Source: Escherichia coli (GTDB lineage: Bacteria; Pseudomonadota; Gammaproteobacteria; Enterobacterales; Enterobacteriaceae). From it: 64,000 bases of DNA. Shown here in pieces: positions 4,463 through 52,366 of the stretch. A program made the position numbers and the translations under genes. Every line of letters begins with the position of its first letter. Position 1 is the stretch's first letter. A model generated the notes under the pieces. It worked only from the letters and a program-made list of their open reading frames with translations. It had not been told where the DNA came from and searched no databases. Location: assembly GCF_024502345.1 (NCBI RefSeq), contig NZ_JALDNN010000001.1; one strand, given 5' to 3'.

Positions 4463-5089
4463 TTATTTTTTCTCGGACAGATATTTCACTGTATCAGCAT
4501 ACTGCTTAACAAAAACATCCATATTGCTGGTATCCATACCCTGCGGATTCAGCTGATATTTACCGTTAACAAACATCGCCGGAACGCCACGCAATTGCAC
4601 GTCAGCTGCAGCTTTTTCCTGCTGAGCGACCAGAGATTTGACCACGAAGCTGTTCCACGCCGCGTCGTACTCTTCACCTTTAATACCTGCGTTGATAAAT
4701 ACATCGCGGATATCAGATGCTGAACGAATGGTCTGGGTTTTCTGTACGCCTTCAAACAGCGGAACAGTGACTTTGTCTTCCACGCCCAGCGCCATCGCCA
4801 CAGCCCATGCCTGAGTCAGATCTTTGCCCAGGTCACCACCCATGAAGTCGACGTGGTATTTAGTCATCTTCACGCCTTCCGGCAGTTTTTTCTTCACATT
4901 ATCAGAAATATGCAGAACTTCTTCAAACTGATAGCAGTGCGGACAGAAGAAAGAGAAAAACTCCAGCACTTGCGGCGCGCCAGCTACCGGTTTTTCCAGG
5001 GTAGTGTACTGTTTACCATCTTCATACTGCGCCGCCGATGCGCTAAACGCTAAAACTAAACCAGCCAGCGCCAGCCAAATCTTTTTCAT
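4463..5089 (-). CDS. dsbA: periplasmic thiol:disulfide oxidoreductase DsbA
   Basis: 208 aa, signal peptide, CPHC active-site motif ([12 protein letters not shown]). Confidence 0.95.
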
Positions 5090-47058: not shown

Positions 47059-47946
47059 ATGGATGCAAAACAAACGCGGCAGGGCGTATTACTCGCTCTT
47101 GCCGCTTATTTTATTTGGGGTATTGCGCCAGCATACTTCAAGCTGATTTACTACGTGCCCGCCGATGAAATCCTGACGCATCGCGTGATCTGGTCGTTTT
47201 TCTTTATGGTGGTGCTGATGAGCATTTGCCGCCAGTGGTCCTATTTAAAAACGCTGATTCAGACGCCACAGAAAATTTTTATGCTGGCAGTCTCTGCCGT
47301 GCTGATTGGTGGCAACTGGCTACTGTTTATCTGGGCGGTGAACAATCACCATATGCTGGAAGCGAGCCTTGGTTACTTTATTAACCCGCTGGTGAACATT
47401 GTGCTGGGGATGATTTTCCTCGGCGAGCGATTCCGCCGGATGCAATGGCTGGCGGTGATTCTGGCGATATGTGGCGTGTTAGTCCAGCTGTGGACTTTTG
47501 GTTCGCTACCTATTATCGCGCTGGGACTGGCATTTAGTTTTGCCTTCTACGGTCTGGTACGCAAGAAGATTGCCGTTGAAGCGCAAACCGGCATGTTAAT
47601 TGAAACCATGTGGCTGCTGCCCGTGGCGGCAATTTACCTGTTTGCTATTGCCGACAGCTCAACCAGCCATATGGGGCAAAACCCGATGTCGCTGAATTTA
47701 CTGCTGATCGCCGCCGGTATTGTCACTACCGTACCGCTGTTGTGTTTTACCGCCGCTGCCACGCGCTTGCGTCTCTCAACGTTAGGCTTTTTCCAGTACA
47801 TTGGCCCGACGCTGATGTTCCTGCTGGCTGTGACGTTTTATGGTGAAAAACCGGGTGCCGATAAGATGGTGACTTTCGCCTTTATTTGGGTGGCGCTGGC
47901 AATTTTTGTGATGGATGCGATTTATACGCAGCGTAGAAAAAGTTAA
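47059..47946 (+). CDS. rarD: EamA-family transporter RarD
   Basis: 295-aa membrane protein. Confidence 0.9.
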   Translation: MDAKQTRQGVLLALAAYFIWGIAPAYFKLIYYVPADEILTHRVIWSFFFMVVLMSICRQWSYLKTLIQTPQKIFMLAVSAVLIGGNWLLFIWAVNNHHMLEASLGYFINPLVNIVLGMIFLGERFRRMQWLAVILAICGVLVQLWTFGSLPIIALGLAFSFAFYGLVRKKIAVEAQTGMLIETMWLLPVAAIYLFAIADSSTSHMGQNPMSLNLLLIAAGIVTTVPLLCFTAAATRLRLSTLGFFQYIGPTLMFLLAVTFYGEKPGADKMVTFAFIWVALAIFVMDAIYTQRRKS

Positions 47947-47992
47947 GAATTAACATGGGTAGGCCGTTTAATGAGCCTACCCACTGACTTAT

Positions 47993-48337
47993 TTATCTTT
48001 TTTTGAAAAAAATTAAGATAAGAAAAAGAACAATATTTGTTACAGGAAGTACCCCCAAAACTCCCCAGTACTTACTCCATCCTAGAGACATCGTATATCT
48101 ACCAAGGATTTGACAAAACCCAAAACTTAACCCTATACCTATACTTCTTAAATTTAATGTCGTAGTCAGGCTTAAAATAAATAGAACAAGGATGGTAATA
48201 GCCCACCACAATAACCATGCCTTAACAAAATCAGATTTTTTGCTGTAAGGTTCTTTACCCAAGAACAACTGCCAAAAGTTACCATTCCCCATATAGAATC
48301 CATTCCCCAAGATATTGTTTATAGAATAAAAATACAT
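47993..48337 (-). CDS. hypothetical small inner-membrane protein (possibly the yigG equivalent)
   Basis: 114-aa ORF with two or three hydrophobic segments in an AT-rich stretch; strand and identity not verified. Confidence 0.35.
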   Translation of the reverse strand: MYFYSINNILGNGFYMGNGNFWQLFLGKEPYSKKSDFVKAWLLWWAITILVLFILSLTTTLNLRSIGIGLSFGFCQILGRYTMSLGWSKYWGVLGVLPVTNIVLFLILIFFKKR

Positions 48338-48616
48338 TCCAATTATATTTAATTAAAATATACCCCATCAATAAAAACTTACACACTCTAAATTACTACT
48401 GTATAGTTATCAATGCAAAGACTGCTATATTGCATATATATATGCAAACCTCATAATTCAGGTAATATATATATTCAAAACAATTATATATAAAAAACAA
48501 TGTAAAAAATATTCAAATCATCCATCAGAAATATATTCTACCCATCCAGGCTTGAGCATTTATCACGCTTTCAGTTCATAATCTATACATTAACATCATG
48601 GTCAATATTAATAACT

Positions 48617-48895
48617 TTGAATGATATCAACCTGGCTTTGAGTTTTATTCTGGTTATTAATAATACCTATGTAAATATCAATATTGGAGCAAAAAGAATA
48701 AGAGATACTGGATGTAAGGCAATCTACTTTGTATTGATTTCATTGGGTTTGACACTTTTTTCTATTATCTCTGCAGCAATTGAAGGGGTGAGATGTGAGT
48801 CATTAAGCGTCCAACTCAACGTGGCATGGATATTATTCACAACAATTATGTTATCTGCGATTCCCTCGGCTAAAATGTCGCTGTCAGCACACTAA
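48617..48895 (+). CDS. hypothetical small membrane protein (possibly the yigF equivalent)
   Basis: 92-aa ORF, hydrophobic, AT-rich context. Confidence 0.3.
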   Translation: MNDINLALSFILVINNTYVNINIGAKRIRDTGCKAIYFVLISLGLTLFSIISAAIEGVRCESLSVQLNVAWILFTTIMLSAIPSAKMSLSAH

Positions 48896-48920
48896 CTTAC
48901 TCACAGCGACATCGTATAGT

Positions 48921-49047
48921 TACAGCCAGTTCTTGCGCTTAAAGTACAGATACGGTGCCAGGCCCGCGAGGATCATAAAGATAATCGCGCCTGGGTAGCC
49001 GAAACTCCACTTCAGTTCTGGCATAAACTCAAAGTTCATGCCATAGC
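48921..49047 (-). pseudogene. displaced duplicate of the corA 3' end (last ~40 codons)
   Basis: ~127 bp, ~94% identical to the corA 3' end at 51419-51545; encodes ...[43 protein letters not shown] with no upstream corA body. Confidence 0.8.
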
Positions 49048-49209
49048 TGGAGGCAATCGGCGTAGGAAAAAGTTTCCTAATCGGTAAATTCAATATTTTG
49101 TTATTAACAATGAGCAAGACCAATCATTAACGACGTTCTCTTCAGAGATGTAATGAAAAAATGTGAAGTGTACTTCTTTTTTAAATATTTTTTTACCCTA
49201 GCATTTGTT

Positions 49210-49218
49210 CTCAAATTG
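49210..49218. repeat. IS1 target-site duplication, left copy (CTCAAATTG)
   Basis: Identical 9-mer at 49987-49995. Confidence 0.9.
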
Positions 49219-49233
49219 GGTAATGACTCCAAC

Positions 49234-49737
49234 TTATTGATAGTGTTTTATGTTCAGATAATGCCCGATGACTTTGTCATGCAGCTCCACCGATTTTGAG
49301 AACGACAGCGACTTCCGTCCCAGCCGTGCCAGGTGCTGCCTCAGATTCAGGTTATGCCGCTCAATTCGCTGCGTATATCGCTTGCTGATTACGTGCAGCT
49401 TTCCCTTCAGGCGGGATTCATACAGCGGCCAGCCATCCGTCATCCATATCACCACGTCAAAGGGTGACAGCAGGCTCATAAGACGCCCCAGCGTCGCCAT
49501 AGTGCGTTCACCGAATACGTGCGCAACAACCGTCTTCCGGAGCCTGTCATACGCGTAAAACAGCCAGCGCTGGCGCGATTTAGCCCCGACGTATCCCCAC
49601 TGTTCGTCCATTTCCGCGCAGACGATGACGTCACTGCCCGGCTGTATGCGCGAGGTTACCGACTGCGGCCTGAGTTTTTTAAATGGCGGAAAATCGTGTT
49701 GAGGCCAACGCCCATAATGCGGGCGGTTGCCCGGCAT
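49234..49737 (-). CDS. insB: IS1 transposase InsB reading frame
   Basis: 167 aa, begins [16 protein letters not shown]. Confidence 0.9.
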
Positions 49738-49931
49738 CCAACGCCATTCATGGCCATATCAATGATTTTCTGGTGCGTACCGGGTTGAGAAGCGGTGTAA
49801 GTGAACTGCAGTTGCCATGTTTTACGGCAGTGAGAGCAGAGATAGCGCTGATGTCCGGCGGTGCTTTTGCCGTTACGCACCACCCCGTCAGTAGCTGAAC
49901 AGGAGGGACAGCTGATAGAAACAGAAGCCAC
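49656..49931 (-). CDS. insA: IS1 InsA
   Basis: 91 aa, begins [42 protein letters not shown]. Confidence 0.9.
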
Positions 49932-49986
49932 TGGAGCACCTCAAAAACACCATCATACACTAAATCAGTAAGTTGGCAGCATCACC

Positions 49987-49995
49987 CTCAAATTG
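49987..49995. repeat. IS1 target-site duplication, right copy (CTCAAATTG)
   Basis: Exact match to 49210-49218. Confidence 0.9.
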
Positions 49996-50121
49996 ATATT
50001 GAGCTTAAATATAACCAAGGAAAATGTAAATGAATAACACATTACTTCCATCAATTAATATTCCCTGTACACTTTTCGAAACTATTAGTTTATTTGATGA
50101 TTATTCTGCTGATGATATGCA

Positions 50122-50145
50122 ATATGGTGATATGGTGATATGGTA
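50122..50145. repeat. 8-bp tandem repeat (ATATGGTG x3, last copy imperfect) spanning the start codon of ORF 50140
   Basis: atatggtg atatggtg atatggta; each unit contains an ATG, and only the third is in frame with the long ORF. Confidence 0.8.
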
Positions 50146-50886
50146 GAACAAGATTTTCTCTCACTCGGCCTAAGCGATATCTCAGCAAAAGTTGATCCTT
50201 ACAGACTTATTAAATACCATTTCCCTAGCCCAGGTTCTATTAATGTTGCTTTTAGTGCCTCAAGTTCCGGAACAAAAATATCACAACGTGAATGCACTGA
50301 TATTTTATTTGCAGAAATGAAAGAACTAGCAAAAATGTTTTCCTTTTTTGGACAATATAAAACACTTATCGAAGATCTGATTGAACATTTTAGATATGGA
50401 AATGGCAGCAATTTTCATAGCCAACAATTAAATTTATCTTTTCATGAAAAAATAAATAAATATGGTTATAATAGTCCAATACGAATAATCAAAGAATGTA
50501 TCGAAAATGGCATTAATTCAACTCCCTCGACAGGATACCAACCTCTTATCCTGCAAAGCATTAAAACCAAATTACTTTCATCAAGACTAAATAAATTTAA
50601 TGACTTCGAGGACAGTTTTAATGGCTTAGGAATCAGTGTTCATGATATTTCAGCTCAAAAAATATCTCTTTTAAGTTTTCAAAAATACGCTATAGGATGG
50701 AGTGCAACAATTCATTTTGTAGCACAGGACCACTTCGGTCTTGATGTAACTGATATCAAAAACAAGACTTACAGCAAATATAGATTTTTTCGCATATGGT
50801 TCTTTTTACAACGGCATAAAGACTTTGCTTTCAAACCTTTTTTCACCAATTTTAACACTATCGAAAGAATCGAAAATTATCTATGA
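50140..50886 (+). CDS. hypothetical protein, 248 aa, no signal peptide (candidate effector/toxin of a two-gene module)
   Basis: Long ORF in AT-rich DNA; its stop overlaps the next ORF's start (ATGA at 50883-50886). Confidence 0.5.
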   Translation: MVEQDFLSLGLSDISAKVDPYRLIKYHFPSPGSINVAFSASSSGTKISQRECTDILFAEMKELAKMFSFFGQYKTLIEDLIEHFRYGNGSNFHSQQLNLSFHEKINKYGYNSPIRIIKECIENGINSTPSTGYQPLILQSIKTKLLSSRLNKFNDFEDSFNGLGISVHDISAQKISLLSFQKYAIGWSATIHFVAQDHFGLDVTDIKNKTYSKYRFFRIWFFLQRHKDFAFKPFFTNFNTIERIENYL

Positions 50887-51374
50887 AAAGCAAACTCCAG
50901 AAAATTATATTATGTTTATTTCTTCTATGCTGCATCTATAATTTATGGACATTGCGTCCTGTACAGATTTTGTATACATACTCTGATGCTGGCAATTCAG
51001 TCTTTCTGGTCGTTGATCATCTGCCATGGACTGACAGCGATAAAATAAATTGGTATCTGAAGCATCAGAATGAAATTAAAAATCAACATCCCCTACCAGA
51101 AGGTAGTTGGCATACCTGGTATGTCATTGATATCGGTAATGGCTTCACTGACTATAAAAAATATATCGAAGGGCCGTATGAAGATCTCTACTGTTTCCCG
51201 ACAATTAAGAGCAATGATAATTGCATCGTGAAAAATTACTTAATGGTTATTAATGAATACCCTTATCGTAACACTCATATTGTTATTAACGATTTTACTG
51301 AGTATCAATTAACACAAGAAAATAAAATAGAGCGAGTTTTCAATCCGCATGACTTTAAAAAAGACAATTTTTAG
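50883..51374 (+). CDS. hypothetical exported/membrane-anchored protein, 163 aa (candidate immunity partner)
   Basis: N-terminal MKSKLQKIILCLFLLCCIYNLWTL is a signal or anchor sequence; translationally coupled to the upstream ORF. Confidence 0.5.
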   Translation: MKSKLQKIILCLFLLCCIYNLWTLRPVQILYTYSDAGNSVFLVVDHLPWTDSDKINWYLKHQNEIKNQHPLPEGSWHTWYVIDIGNGFTDYKKYIEGPYEDLYCFPTIKSNDNCIVKNYLMVINEYPYRNTHIVINDFTEYQLTQENKIERVFNPHDFKKDNF

Positions 51375-51415: not shown

Positions 51416-52366
51416 TTACAACCAGTTCTTCCGCTTAAAGTACAGATACGGTGCCAGGCCCGCGAGGATCATAAAGATAATCGCGCCTGGGTAGCCGAAA
51501 CTCCACTTCAACTCTGGCATAAATTCAAAGTTCATCCCGTAGCTGGAAGCCACCAGCGTCGGTGGCAGGAACACCACGGATACCACCGAGAAGATTTTGA
51601 TGATGCGGTTCTGCTCGATGTTGATAAAGCCCATCGCCGCCTGCATCAGGAAGTTCACCTTCTGGAACAGGGATTCGTTATGCGGCAGCAGGGATTCGAT
51701 ATCTCGCAGGATTTCACGCGCCTGCTCCAGTTGCCCACCCGGTAAACGCGCCTTGCGTACCAGGAAGTTGAGCGCACGCTGGGTATCCATCAGACACAGG
51801 CGAACTTTCCAGCCGATATCTTCCAGTTCCGCCAGCGTGGAGAGCGCCTCATCGTACTCATCGCCCTGATGCCCTTCCATAATTACCCGGCTCAACTGCT
51901 CCAGATCGCTGTAGATATTTTCAATTTCATCTGCCAGCTGTTCGATTTTGGTTTCGAACAGATCCAACAGCAGCTCGTAGGCGTTACCGTCCACCATTGA
52001 CTGGCTACGGGCGCGCATACGATACAGACGGAATGCAGGCAGTTCACGCTCACGCAGAGTAAACAGACGACCATCACGGATGGTAAATGCCACAGTGGAG
52101 TTACCGGCGTGATCTTCCGCATCTTCAAAGAAGAAGAAGGAGTGAATATGCAGGCCGTCATCGTCTTCAAAGAAACGTGCCGATGCTTCGATGTCTTCCA
52201 GTTCCGGGCGGGTTGCCAGGCTCTGGCCAAGTTCAGATTGTACGCGCAGTCGCTCGTCGTCGTCCGGTTCGACAAGATCAATCCATACTGCATTTACAAG
52301 GGGTTGTGACTCTTCGACTTCCAGCCGGGTCAGTCGGTTATTTTCCAGTTGAAATGCGCTCAGCAT
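51416..52366 (-). CDS. corA: magnesium/cobalt transport protein CorA
   Basis: ORF 51416..52381; the start is [16 protein letters not shown] at 52366 (316 aa); GMN motif (YGMNF) and two C-terminal TM helices. Confidence 0.95.

What the first reader, a model, noticed from the sequence alone, without database searches (positions are those of the whole stretch)
47950..48900. AT-rich stretch with small membrane-protein ORFs whose strand may differ from the K-12 arrangement
The stretch between rarD and the orphan corA tail is strongly AT-rich, with (AT)n runs around 48430-48500. It contains a 114-aa minus-strand ORF and a 92-aa plus-strand ORF, both hydrophobic. I expected the yigG and yigF equivalents here on the same strand as rarD, so either this segment differs in this strain or the ORFs are unrelated.
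Basis: inference. Interest (0 to 1): 0.3.

Follow-up and report, generated by a model that had tools for sequence, protein, structure and literature searches.

The report
Alternative small-membrane-protein cassette between rarD and corA
This AT-rich stretch is an ordinary, old alternative version of the E. coli rarD-corA gap, found in about a quarter of strains, that carries an orphan small membrane-protein gene and a very divergent yigG relative (start codon lost here) in place of K-12's yigG-yigF.

Summary
Window 47947-48919 is 32% GC against 51% for the window. It holds three of the window's four (AT)n runs, plus the 114-aa minus-strand and 92-aa plus-strand hydrophobic ORFs.

It is neither K-12 yigG-yigF nor an inversion of it: there is no nucleotide homology on either strand. 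It is an alternative cassette present in 1463 of 5426 complete E. coli genomes, including O157:H7 and O55:H7. A ~92%-identity Escherichia species has it too, and Pseudocitrobacter has it in simpler form.

The cassette holds two divergently transcribed genes for small membrane proteins, both under purifying selection (dN/dS 0.15-0.26).
- **orf99** (minus, 47993-48292). The 114-aa form comes from a 1-bp deletion seen in this sub-lineage. It is unrelated to YigF and only weakly DUF805-like.
- **A 128-codon yigG-like gene** (plus, 48509-48895, same strand as rarD). It is 29% identical to K-12 YigG over its full length. Here the ATG start has become ATA, so the gene is probably inactive.

There is no yigF equivalent. 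The orphan corA tail marks a later insertion of a DUF3289/DUF943 toxin-immunity pair. Function is unknown. This is ordinary strain polymorphism of low interest.

The parts
47059..47946 (+). rarD, the left flanking core gene. Its last codons belong to the variable haplotype: it ends ...QRRKS (295 aa), whereas K-12 ends ...QRRTSK (296 aa).
   Evidence: ORF list; PGAP annotation of the identical strain; homology to K-12 ends at 47938; C-termini compared.
47955..47984 (.). Hairpin with 11 bp of stem between the convergent rarD and orf99 genes. It looks like a bidirectional terminator.
   Evidence: Terminator-like site found. Invariant in 9 strains except one loop base.
47993..48292 (-). orf99: the conserved 99-codon gene for a small membrane protein predicted to have 3 helices. 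PGAP calls it 'hypothetical protein' WP_000526434.1 in the identical strain. It is an orphan family with weak DUF805-like features.
   Evidence: Annotation. dN/dS 0.18-0.26 against diverged lineages. No indels inside it in 9 strains. A 61%-identical homologue sits at the same site in Pseudocitrobacter. AF2 model with three long helices, pLDDT 71.
48293..48337 (-). A 1-bp deletion between 48305 and 48306 removes a GTG and fuses the frame to an upstream ATG.
   Evidence: In the 9-strain alignment only the window and MS1665 lack the base (column 367). Upstream sequences compared, including L015 and L018, which have the base. The best promoter-like site (48371->48342) would start transcription at about this ATG.
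48293..48508 (.). 216-bp divergent intergenic region at 22% GC. It carries the (AT)n runs (48434-48443, 48465-48474, 48485-48492) and A-runs, and is presumed to be the shared promoter region of orf99 and the yigG-like gene.
   Evidence: GC and runs. All six indel sites among the 9 strains fall here, including ±1 AT unit at two runs. Promoter-like sites occur on both strands but are not enriched over shuffles. No Rfam match.
48509..48895 (+). yigG-like gene of 128 codons, on the same strand as rarD. Its first codon here is ATA, where 6 of 9 sampled strains and all diverged relatives have ATG. An in-frame TAA lies at 48503-48505. It is probably a start-codon pseudogene in this strain.
   Evidence: Frame translation. 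Intact 128-aa homologues MFKSS.... DNA alignment, column 576. dN/dS 0.15-0.18. Homology to YigG. 350 of 1418 genomes are identical over the 54 bp that include the ATA.
48617..48895 (+). It is the 3' 72% of the yigG-like gene. It lacks the conserved N-terminal motif and part of the first predicted TM segment (codons 32-50 of the full-length frame).
48920..49066 (-). Orphan corA 3' remnant of 147 nt, 92% identical to the tail of the real corA at 51416-51562. It marks the original cassette/corA junction.
   Evidence: Direct repeat D1. PGAP pseudogene 'CorA family... missing N-terminus'. Pseudocitrobacter has the yigG-like gene directly next to an intact corA.
49219..49986 (-). IS1 with a 9-bp target duplication CTCAAATTG (49210-49218 and 49987-49995). 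It is absent from the otherwise identical strain and lies 44 bp upstream of the DUF3289 start. Context only.
50030..51374 (+). DUF3289 (YPO3983 family) and DUF943 gene pair, inserted between the corA remnant and corA. DUF3289 is frameshifted here by an extra 8-bp ATATGGTG unit (50122-50137); DUF943 is intact. Context only.
   Evidence: Pfam E 8.8e-73 and 1.5e-26. Annotation. Frameshift comparison. Function from PMC11148199.
51416..52366 (-). corA, the right flanking core gene, intact.

Best explanation
Window 47947-48919 is one of several alternative gene cassettes that occupy the gap between the 3' ends of the core genes rarD and corA in Escherichia. K-12 has yigG-yigF there.

**What this cassette contains**
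- Two genes for small (99 and 128 aa) inner-membrane proteins with three predicted hydrophobic segments each.
- They are transcribed divergently from a shared 216-bp region of 22% GC that contains short, length-polymorphic (AT)n and A runs.
- orf99 (minus strand) converges on rarD across a hairpin terminator. It belongs to a small orphan family with only sub-threshold DUF805 resemblance.
- The plus-strand gene is a very distant (29% identical), full-length, collinear homologue of yigG. It has the K-12 orientation but lies next to corA.
- There is no yigF equivalent.

**What is specific to this strain's sub-lineage**
- The yigG-like ATG has mutated to ATA, so the gene is most likely no longer translated at a useful level. 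That loss of function is an inference.
- A 1-bp deletion upstream of orf99 artificially lengthens its ORF to 114 codons.

**Inferred history**
- The original layout was rarD / orf99 / yigG-like / corA, as still seen in Pseudocitrobacter.
- A DUF3289-DUF943 (colicin-M-like toxin/immunity) module carrying a corA 3' end was later inserted, leaving the 147-nt orphan corA tail.
- Whole cassettes are exchanged between lineages by homologous recombination in the flanking core genes.

**Function**
Like K-12 yigG-yigF, this AT-rich DNA is expected to be H-NS-bound and poorly expressed (inference by analogy). The biochemical function of either protein is unknown. My best guess is accessory inner-membrane proteins of the DUF805 type with no enzymatic domain.
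For: **Not K-12 DNA**
- blastn finds homology only up to 47938 and from 48920 on, on either strand.

**A common haplotype**
- 1463 of 5426 complete E. coli genomes carry it, always on the chromosome and at one site.
- The K-12 type or its 79%-identical variant is in about 2962 genomes. About 996 more keep only 84 bp of the K-12 type; in the one inspected, DUF3289-DUF943 directly follows rarD.

**Both genes are real**
- dN/dS is 0.18-0.26 for orf99 and 0.15-0.18 for the yigG-like gene, at dS 0.14-0.62.
- All six indel sites among 9 strains lie outside the 99- and 128-codon frames.
- The same divergent pair lies between rarD and corA in a ~92%-identity Escherichia species.
- Pseudocitrobacter corydidari has it too, at 61% and 47% aa identity, with no corA tail and no DUF3289/DUF943.
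- A 73%-identity contig shows the same pairing.

**yigG homology**
- BLASTP gives 29% identity over 125 aa, E 3e-5.
- The NF008474 model is matched at positions 13-133 of 138, with E 5e-8 to 5e-5.
- The two share the R-[IL]-R-D-[ST]-G motif and nearly the same length.

**Start-codon loss**
- The window, MS1665 and C2 have ATA; six other strains, L015 and L018 have ATG, and the Pseudocitrobacter homologue likewise begins with Met.
- An in-frame TAA lies two codons upstream, and the next canonical start is TTG at codon 37.

**orf99 start**
- PGAP aa in all 9 annotated strains.
- Only 2 of 9 strains have the 1-bp deletion.

**DUF805 link**
- Six distant orf99-family members have DUF805 as their best or second-best Pfam hit over the full length, at E 6e-5 to 0.03.
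- K-12 YigG and the yigG-like proteins also hit DUF805 below threshold.

**Precedent**
- K-12 yigF-yigG is a published H-NS-associated 'promoter island' with spurious intragenic promoters (PMC3661553; PMC7229825).
Against: - No expression or translation data were available, so coding status rests on evolutionary signatures alone.
- Homology of the yigG-like gene to YigG is weak (23-33 bits) and far below the equivalog cut-off.
- The orf99-DUF805 link is indirect. orf99 itself has no Pfam or NCBIfam hit. hhalign against the YigG family gives 0.7% probability. My own HMM of the family scores YhaH, YhaI and YigG at only 0-5 bits.
- ATA can initiate translation at a low level, so 'inactive' is not proven.
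- PGAP does not annotate the yigG-like gene even in strains where it is intact.
- Promoter-like sites are no more frequent than in shuffled sequence.
- The insertion history is inferred from a few genomes.
Confidence: 0.85

Rival explanations
1. The two ORFs are the ordinary yigG and yigF orthologues, perhaps locally inverted, and simply diverged in this strain.
For: The position between rarD and corA is the same. The sizes are similar (99-128 aa against 126 aa) and all are hydrophobic. The plus-strand gene is a remote YigG homologue.
Against: - There is no nucleotide similarity to the K-12 interval on either strand.
- NF008474 scores 23-33 bits against a cut-off of 217. By contrast, the true diverged allele L006 scores 210 bits.
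- orf99 against YigF gives BLASTP E 5.3 and hhalign probability 0.5%. There is no DUF2628 hit, whereas K-12 YigF hits DUF2628 at 3.7e-10.
- Gene order differs: the yigG-like gene is next to corA, not next to rarD.
Confidence: 0.03
2. The ORFs are chance open frames in AT-rich non-coding or decayed DNA, and nothing here is a functional gene.
For: - The DNA is AT-rich with no recognisable Shine-Dalgarno sequences.
- PGAP leaves the plus-strand frame unannotated.
- In this strain the plus-strand frame lacks a start codon.
- There are no family hits above threshold.
Against: - dN/dS is 0.15-0.26 across lineages with dS up to 0.6.
- Neither frame contains an indel, while the intergenic DNA has six indel sites.
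- Length and order are conserved in Pseudocitrobacter at 47-61% aa identity.
- Frames this long are rare in shuffles, p about 0.006-0.016.
Confidence: 0.07
3. The stretch is a recently acquired foreign island, for example part of a mobile element that arrived together with IS1 and the DUF3289/DUF943 module.
For: GC is 32%, against a 51% background. An IS1 and a toxin-immunity module are adjacent, and the duplicated corA tail is typical of an insertion event.
Against: - The cassette occupies the same chromosomal site in a different genus, without the corA tail, IS1 or the toxin module.
- It also occurs in a ~92%-identity Escherichia species.
- The IS1 is absent from a strain whose 973-bp segment is 100% identical.
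- No copies are on plasmids.
- The K-12 cassette is equally AT-rich at 34.7%.
- The insertion signature therefore belongs to the DUF3289/DUF943 module, not to 47947-48919.
Confidence: 0.05

Closest known systems
E. coli K-12 YigG (b3818; NCBIfam NF008474 equivalog)
   Same: - Similar length (128 against 126 aa) and hydrophobic throughout.
- Collinear alignment over the full length.
- Conserved R-[IL]-R-D-[ST]-G motif before the last third.
- Same strand as rarD and the same rarD-corA interval.
- Both are AT-rich, and both hit DUF805 below threshold.
   Different: - Only 29% identity and no DNA similarity.
- The HMM score is about a tenth of the equivalog cut-off.
- It lies next to corA rather than rarD.
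- It is paired divergently with orf99 rather than in tandem with yigF.
- In this strain it lacks an ATG.
DUF805 (PF05656) small inner-membrane proteins, e.g. E. coli YhaH and YhaI
   Same: - About 100-120 aa, with an N-terminal basic motif before the first TM helix.
- An R-L-x-x-x-G-x-[SN]-K-W/F motif before the last helix in the orf99 family. My HMM aligns it with RRLHDTDRSAWW of YhaH.
- Distant orf99-family members hit DUF805 over the full length at E 6e-5 to 0.03.
   Different: All hits are below the Pfam gathering score. orf99 itself has no hit at all. Profile-to-sequence and profile-to-profile tests are not significant.
E. coli K-12 YigF (b3817; DUF2628, PF10947)
   Different: No similarity to either ORF. 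Neither ORF hits DUF2628, whereas YigF does at 3.7e-10. The gene is simply absent from this haplotype.
K-12 yigF-yigG 'promoter island' / H-NS-silenced AT-rich genes (PMC3661553; PMC7229825)
   Same: Same locus and comparable AT content (34.7% against 32.2% GC). The AT tracts are of the kind shown to drive spurious transcription inside yigG.
   Different: The sequence is different. H-NS binding and transcription of this cassette were not measured. Promoter-like sites are not enriched over composition-matched shuffles.
DUF3289/DUF943 colicin-M-like T6SS effector-immunity pair (PMC11148199)
   Same: This is the neighbouring module (50030-51374). It matches both Pfam families strongly, and its insertion explains the orphan corA tail that bounds the finding.
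   Different: It is not part of 47950-48900. In this strain the toxin gene is disrupted by an 8-bp duplication and has an IS1 upstream, while the immunity gene is intact.

Membership tests
YigG equivalog (NCBIfam NF008474) | Whole-protein HMM score at or above the curated cut-off of 217 bits | tested here: not met
   The 92-aa fragment scores 22.4 bits. Full-length relatives score 23-33 bits. K-12 YigG scores 255.6 bits, and the 79%-nt allele L006 scores 210.4.
YigG equivalog (NCBIfam NF008474) | Detectable full-length homology to YigG (collinear alignment, shared motif) | tested here: met
   BLASTP gives 29% identity over 125 aa, E 3e-5. The HMM is aligned at positions 13-133 of 138, E 5e-8 to 5e-5. 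The R-[IL]-R-D-[ST]-G motif is invariant.
YigG equivalog (NCBIfam NF008474) | K-12 synteny: immediately downstream of rarD, same strand, followed by yigF | tested here: not met
   The strand is the same as rarD, but orf99 lies between it and rarD, and no yigF follows.
YigG equivalog (NCBIfam NF008474) | Intact translatable gene in this window | tested here: not met
   The first codon is ATA, where relatives have ATG. An in-frame TAA lies two codons upstream.
DUF805 (PF05656) | Pfam gathering score of 25.7 bits | tested here: not met
   - yigG-like proteins score 13-16 bits.
- orf99 has no hit.
- Distant orf99-family members score 15-24 bits.
- K-12 YigG itself scores only 17.3 bits.
DUF805 (PF05656) | Small protein with three transmembrane helices | tested here: inconclusive
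   The AF2 model of orf99 has long helices at 19-43, 48-69 and 74-96, with pLDDT 71. Kyte-Doolittle finds 2 segments in orf99 and 3 in the yigG-like protein. A fold search against AFDB was not possible.
YigF / DUF2628 (PF10947) | Match to the DUF2628 model or to YigF | tested here: not met
   Neither ORF hits DUF2628 at E up to 5. BLASTP of the 114-aa ORF against YigF gives E 5.3. hhalign gives 0.5% probability.
Protein-coding gene (both ORFs) | Purifying selection and frame conservation across lineages | tested here: met
   dN/dS is 0.15-0.26. There are no indels in the frames, against six indel sites in the 216-bp spacer. Both are conserved in Pseudocitrobacter.
Protein-coding gene (both ORFs) | Evidence of transcription and translation | not testable with these tools
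   No expression data were accessible.
H-NS-silenced AT-rich 'promoter island' (as K-12 yigF-yigG) | H-NS occupancy and a high density of functional promoter-like sites | tested here: inconclusive
   The AT content fits. However, there are 7 promoter-like sites against 7.3 ± 2.6 in shuffles. H-NS binding cannot be tested here.

The most novel reading that the evidence does not exclude
The rarD-corA gap may be a long-lived cassette-exchange site kept polymorphic by selection. Under this reading, the small DUF805-like membrane proteins (orf99, the yigG-like protein, and YigG and YigF in K-12) would be protective or immunity-type factors against membrane- or envelope-targeting toxins. That would explain why they alternate and co-reside with a colicin-M-like DUF3289/DUF943 effector-immunity pair. 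The length-polymorphic (AT)n tracts in the divergent promoter region could tune or switch their expression by strand slippage.
Probability: 0.05. Interest if true: 0.45.

Novelty: new member of a known kind. Interest (0 to 1): 0.15.

Why it matters
It matters little beyond annotation.

- **Annotation.** A 128-codon gene that is conserved and under purifying selection is left unannotated by PGAP in the RefSeq genomes inspected, including O55:H7 RM12579. The family of the 'hypothetical protein' next to it can tentatively be tied to DUF805.
- **Genome comparison.** The rarD-corA interval is a multi-allelic site with at least four layouts. Differences from K-12 here are therefore expected, and do not signal an assembly error or an inversion.
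- **This strain.** The yigG-like gene and the neighbouring DUF3289 toxin gene both look inactivated, while the DUF943 immunity gene is kept.

Tried and rejected
- **Inversion or divergence of K-12 yigG-yigF.** Rejected: blastn finds nothing on either strand.
- **orf99 as YigF or YigG.** BLASTP and hhalign are negative.
- **'Distant' orf99 hits P0009-P0025.** These turned out to be frameshifted copies of the same E. coli gene, not true variants. They were dropped from the profiles.
- **Structured RNA in the AT-rich spacer.** Rfam at E ≤ 1 found nothing.
- **Promoter scan.** The site count equals the shuffled expectation, so it carries no weight.
- **My own HMM of the orf99 family against YhaH, YhaI, YigG and YigF.** Scores are 0-5 bits and not significant, although the alignments are collinear.
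- **Fold search of the orf99 model against AFDB.** The library was unavailable. PDB searches were judged uninformative for a 3-helix membrane protein and were not run.
- **Short repeats inside the stretch (D2-D8, I5, I12).** These are low-complexity AT matches and were not pursued.
- **Scan of genome contigs for species distribution.** Not run. Pseudocitrobacter and the ~92%-identity Escherichia contigs already answered the question.

Full report
**Setting**

The window carries pldA (-), yigI (+) and rarD (+, 47059-47946), and further on corA (-, 51416-52366). This is the K-12 region pldA-yigI-rarD-yigG-yigF-corA read on the opposite strand.

- GC is 32.2% for 47947-48919, against 50.7% for the window, with a 200-nt minimum of 23%.
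- (AT)n runs of at least 4 units lie at 48434-48443, 48465-48474 and 48485-48492. They are three of the four such runs in the 64 kb.
- The 114-aa minus-strand ORF (47993-48337) and the 92-aa plus-strand ORF (48617-48895) exist. Both are hydrophobic, with GRAVY 0.69 and 0.93.
- Open frames of this length are rare in shuffles of the same stretch: 0.6% reach 128 codons and 1.6% reach 114.

**It is not K-12 DNA, inverted or otherwise**

blastn of the window against the K-12 locus aligns up to 47938, which is 8 nt before the rarD stop. It aligns again from the corA stop codon onward. In between, the only match is the 137-nt orphan corA tail. The haplotype boundary even changes the RarD C-terminus: it is ...QRRKS here and ...QRRTSK in K-12.

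**The locus is multi-allelic in E. coli**

| Layout | Genomes (of 5426 complete) | Source |
|---|---|---|
| This segment | 1463, always chromosomal, one copy, 98-100% identical; includes O157:H7, O55:H7, O111 and O22:H8 | |
| K-12 yigG-yigF interval, full length | about 2962, of which about 554 are a 79%-identical variant | |
| Only the first 84 bp of the K-12 interval | about 996; in the one inspected, a DUF3289-DUF943 pair follows rarD directly | |

A strain whose segment is 100% identical to the window (NZ_CP062871.1) has this order: rarD / hypothetical 99 aa (-) / corA pseudogene fragment / YPO3983 (DUF3289) / DUF943 / corA.

**The plus-strand ORF is the 3' part of a yigG-like gene**

- The frame is open from 48506. 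Related sequences encode an intact 128-aa protein, MFKSSIRNIFYPSR....
- In a 9-strain alignment, six strains have ATG at the position where the window, MS1665 and C2 have ATA (48509-48511). These same three strains also carry an R-to-H change.
- An in-frame TAA sits at 48503-48505. The next canonical start is the TTG at codon 37 that gave the 92-aa ORF.
- Diverged relatives L015 and L018 have ATG, and the Pseudocitrobacter homologue likewise begins with Met, so ATA is the derived state.
- 350 of 1418 genomes are identical over 54 bp spanning the ATA.
- The full-length protein aligns collinearly with K-12 YigG at 29% identity over 125 aa, E 3e-5.
- It matches the YigG NCBIfam model over positions 13-133 of 138 at E 5e-8 to 5e-5. 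The score is only 23-33 bits against the equivalog cut-off of 217.
- Both proteins share the R-[IL]-R-D-[ST]-G motif and a sub-threshold DUF805 hit.

This is therefore a remote yigG homologue in the reference orientation. It is not an orthologue, and in this strain it is probably a start-codon pseudogene.

**The minus-strand ORF is a separate conserved gene of 99 codons**

- PGAP annotates 47993-48292 equivalents as a 99-aa hypothetical protein in every strain examined.
- The 114-aa form arises from a 1-bp deletion between 48305 and 48306, seen in only 2 of 9 strains. It fuses the frame to an upstream ATG.
- The gene has no similarity to YigF or YigG and no Pfam or NCBIfam hit.
- Exhaustive profile searches find only a small family. 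Members come from Escherichia, from Pseudocitrobacter corydidari (61% identity), and from a handful of metagenomic contigs at 25-40% identity.
- Six of the distant members have DUF805 as their best or second-best Pfam hit, over the full length, at E 6e-5 to 0.03. This is just below the gathering score.
- Direct tests of the link are not significant.
- An AlphaFold model (pLDDT 71) shows three long helices.

**Both genes are under selection**

- Against two diverged lineages (rarD dS about 0.25), dN/dS is 0.18-0.26 for orf99 and 0.15-0.18 for the yigG-like gene. rarD gives 0.01-0.05.
- All six indel sites among the nine strains fall in the 216-bp spacer 48293-48508, which is 22% GC. They include ±1 AT unit at two of the runs. 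None falls in the 99- or 128-codon frames.

**History**

- A ~92%-identity Escherichia species has the full layout, including the corA tail and DUF3289-DUF943.
- Pseudocitrobacter has corA / yigG-like (127 aa) / orf98 / rarD, with no corA remnant and no toxin module.
- A 73%-identity contig shows the same divergent pair next to rarD.
- I infer that rarD / orf99 / yigG-like / corA is an old layout. The DUF3289-DUF943 module, carrying a corA 3' end, was inserted later and left the 147-nt tail, which is 92% identical to the real one.
- Salmonella carries the K-12-type yigG at 82% aa identity (PMC3579871). Both haplotypes therefore appear to be old.

**Function**

Function is unknown. By analogy with K-12 yigF-yigG, I expect this cassette to be poorly expressed and H-NS-bound. 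The K-12 locus is a published H-NS-associated promoter island with spurious intragenic promoters (PMC3661553; PMC7229825). This is inference only. The simple promoter scan is uninformative, with 7 sites against 7.3 expected, and there is no Rfam match.

**Verdict**

The feature is an ordinary, widespread strain polymorphism. The only mildly new points are three:
- an unannotated but conserved yigG-like gene;
- its start-codon loss in this sub-lineage;
- a tentative DUF805 affiliation for orf99.

Noticed in passing
window 49219-49986 (target duplications at 49210-49218 and 49987-49995): IS1 insertion with a 9-bp target duplication CTCAAATTG, 44 bp upstream of the DUF3289 start codon. It is absent from NZ_CP062871.1, whose 973-bp rarD-corA segment is 100% identical to the window, so the insertion is probably recent.
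   Followed up: partly
window 50122-50137 (within the DUF3289 gene, 50030-50886): An extra 8-bp tandem unit ATATGGTG (three copies against two in L001) frameshifts the DUF3289 (YPO3983, colicin-M-like T6SS effector) gene into 38-aa and 248-aa ORFs. The downstream DUF943 immunity gene (50883-51374) stays intact. The pattern is toxin lost, immunity kept.
   Followed up: partly
window 48920-49066 and 51416-51562: The two corA 3' copies are 92% identical in this strain. The orphan tail here is 98.5% identical to the real corA tail of strain L001, whereas the window's real tail is only 89% identical to L001's orphan tail. This suggests gene conversion or recombination between the repeats or between alleles.
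   Followed up: no
L007 3562-3948 (O55:H7 RM12579) and the equivalent positions in L008-L012: The intact 128-codon yigG-like ORF (ATG start) is not annotated by PGAP in any RefSeq genome inspected, although it is under purifying selection.
   Followed up: yes
window 48434-48445 and 48465-48476 (alignment A3, columns 496-497 and 527-528): The (AT)n tracts differ by one unit between strains. One change looks recurrent: MS1665, which belongs to the window's own sub-lineage, shares the shorter first tract with the distant strains KSC1031 and NB4833. This points to repeated strand slippage in the divergent promoter region.
   Followed up: partly
L005 (NZ_CP134718.1) 4501-4810: A third layout of the locus has DUF3289-DUF943 directly after rarD, with only 84 bp of the K-12-type rarD-yigG spacer retained and no duplicated corA tail. 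The toxin-immunity module therefore sits in at least two different junction contexts.
   Followed up: partly
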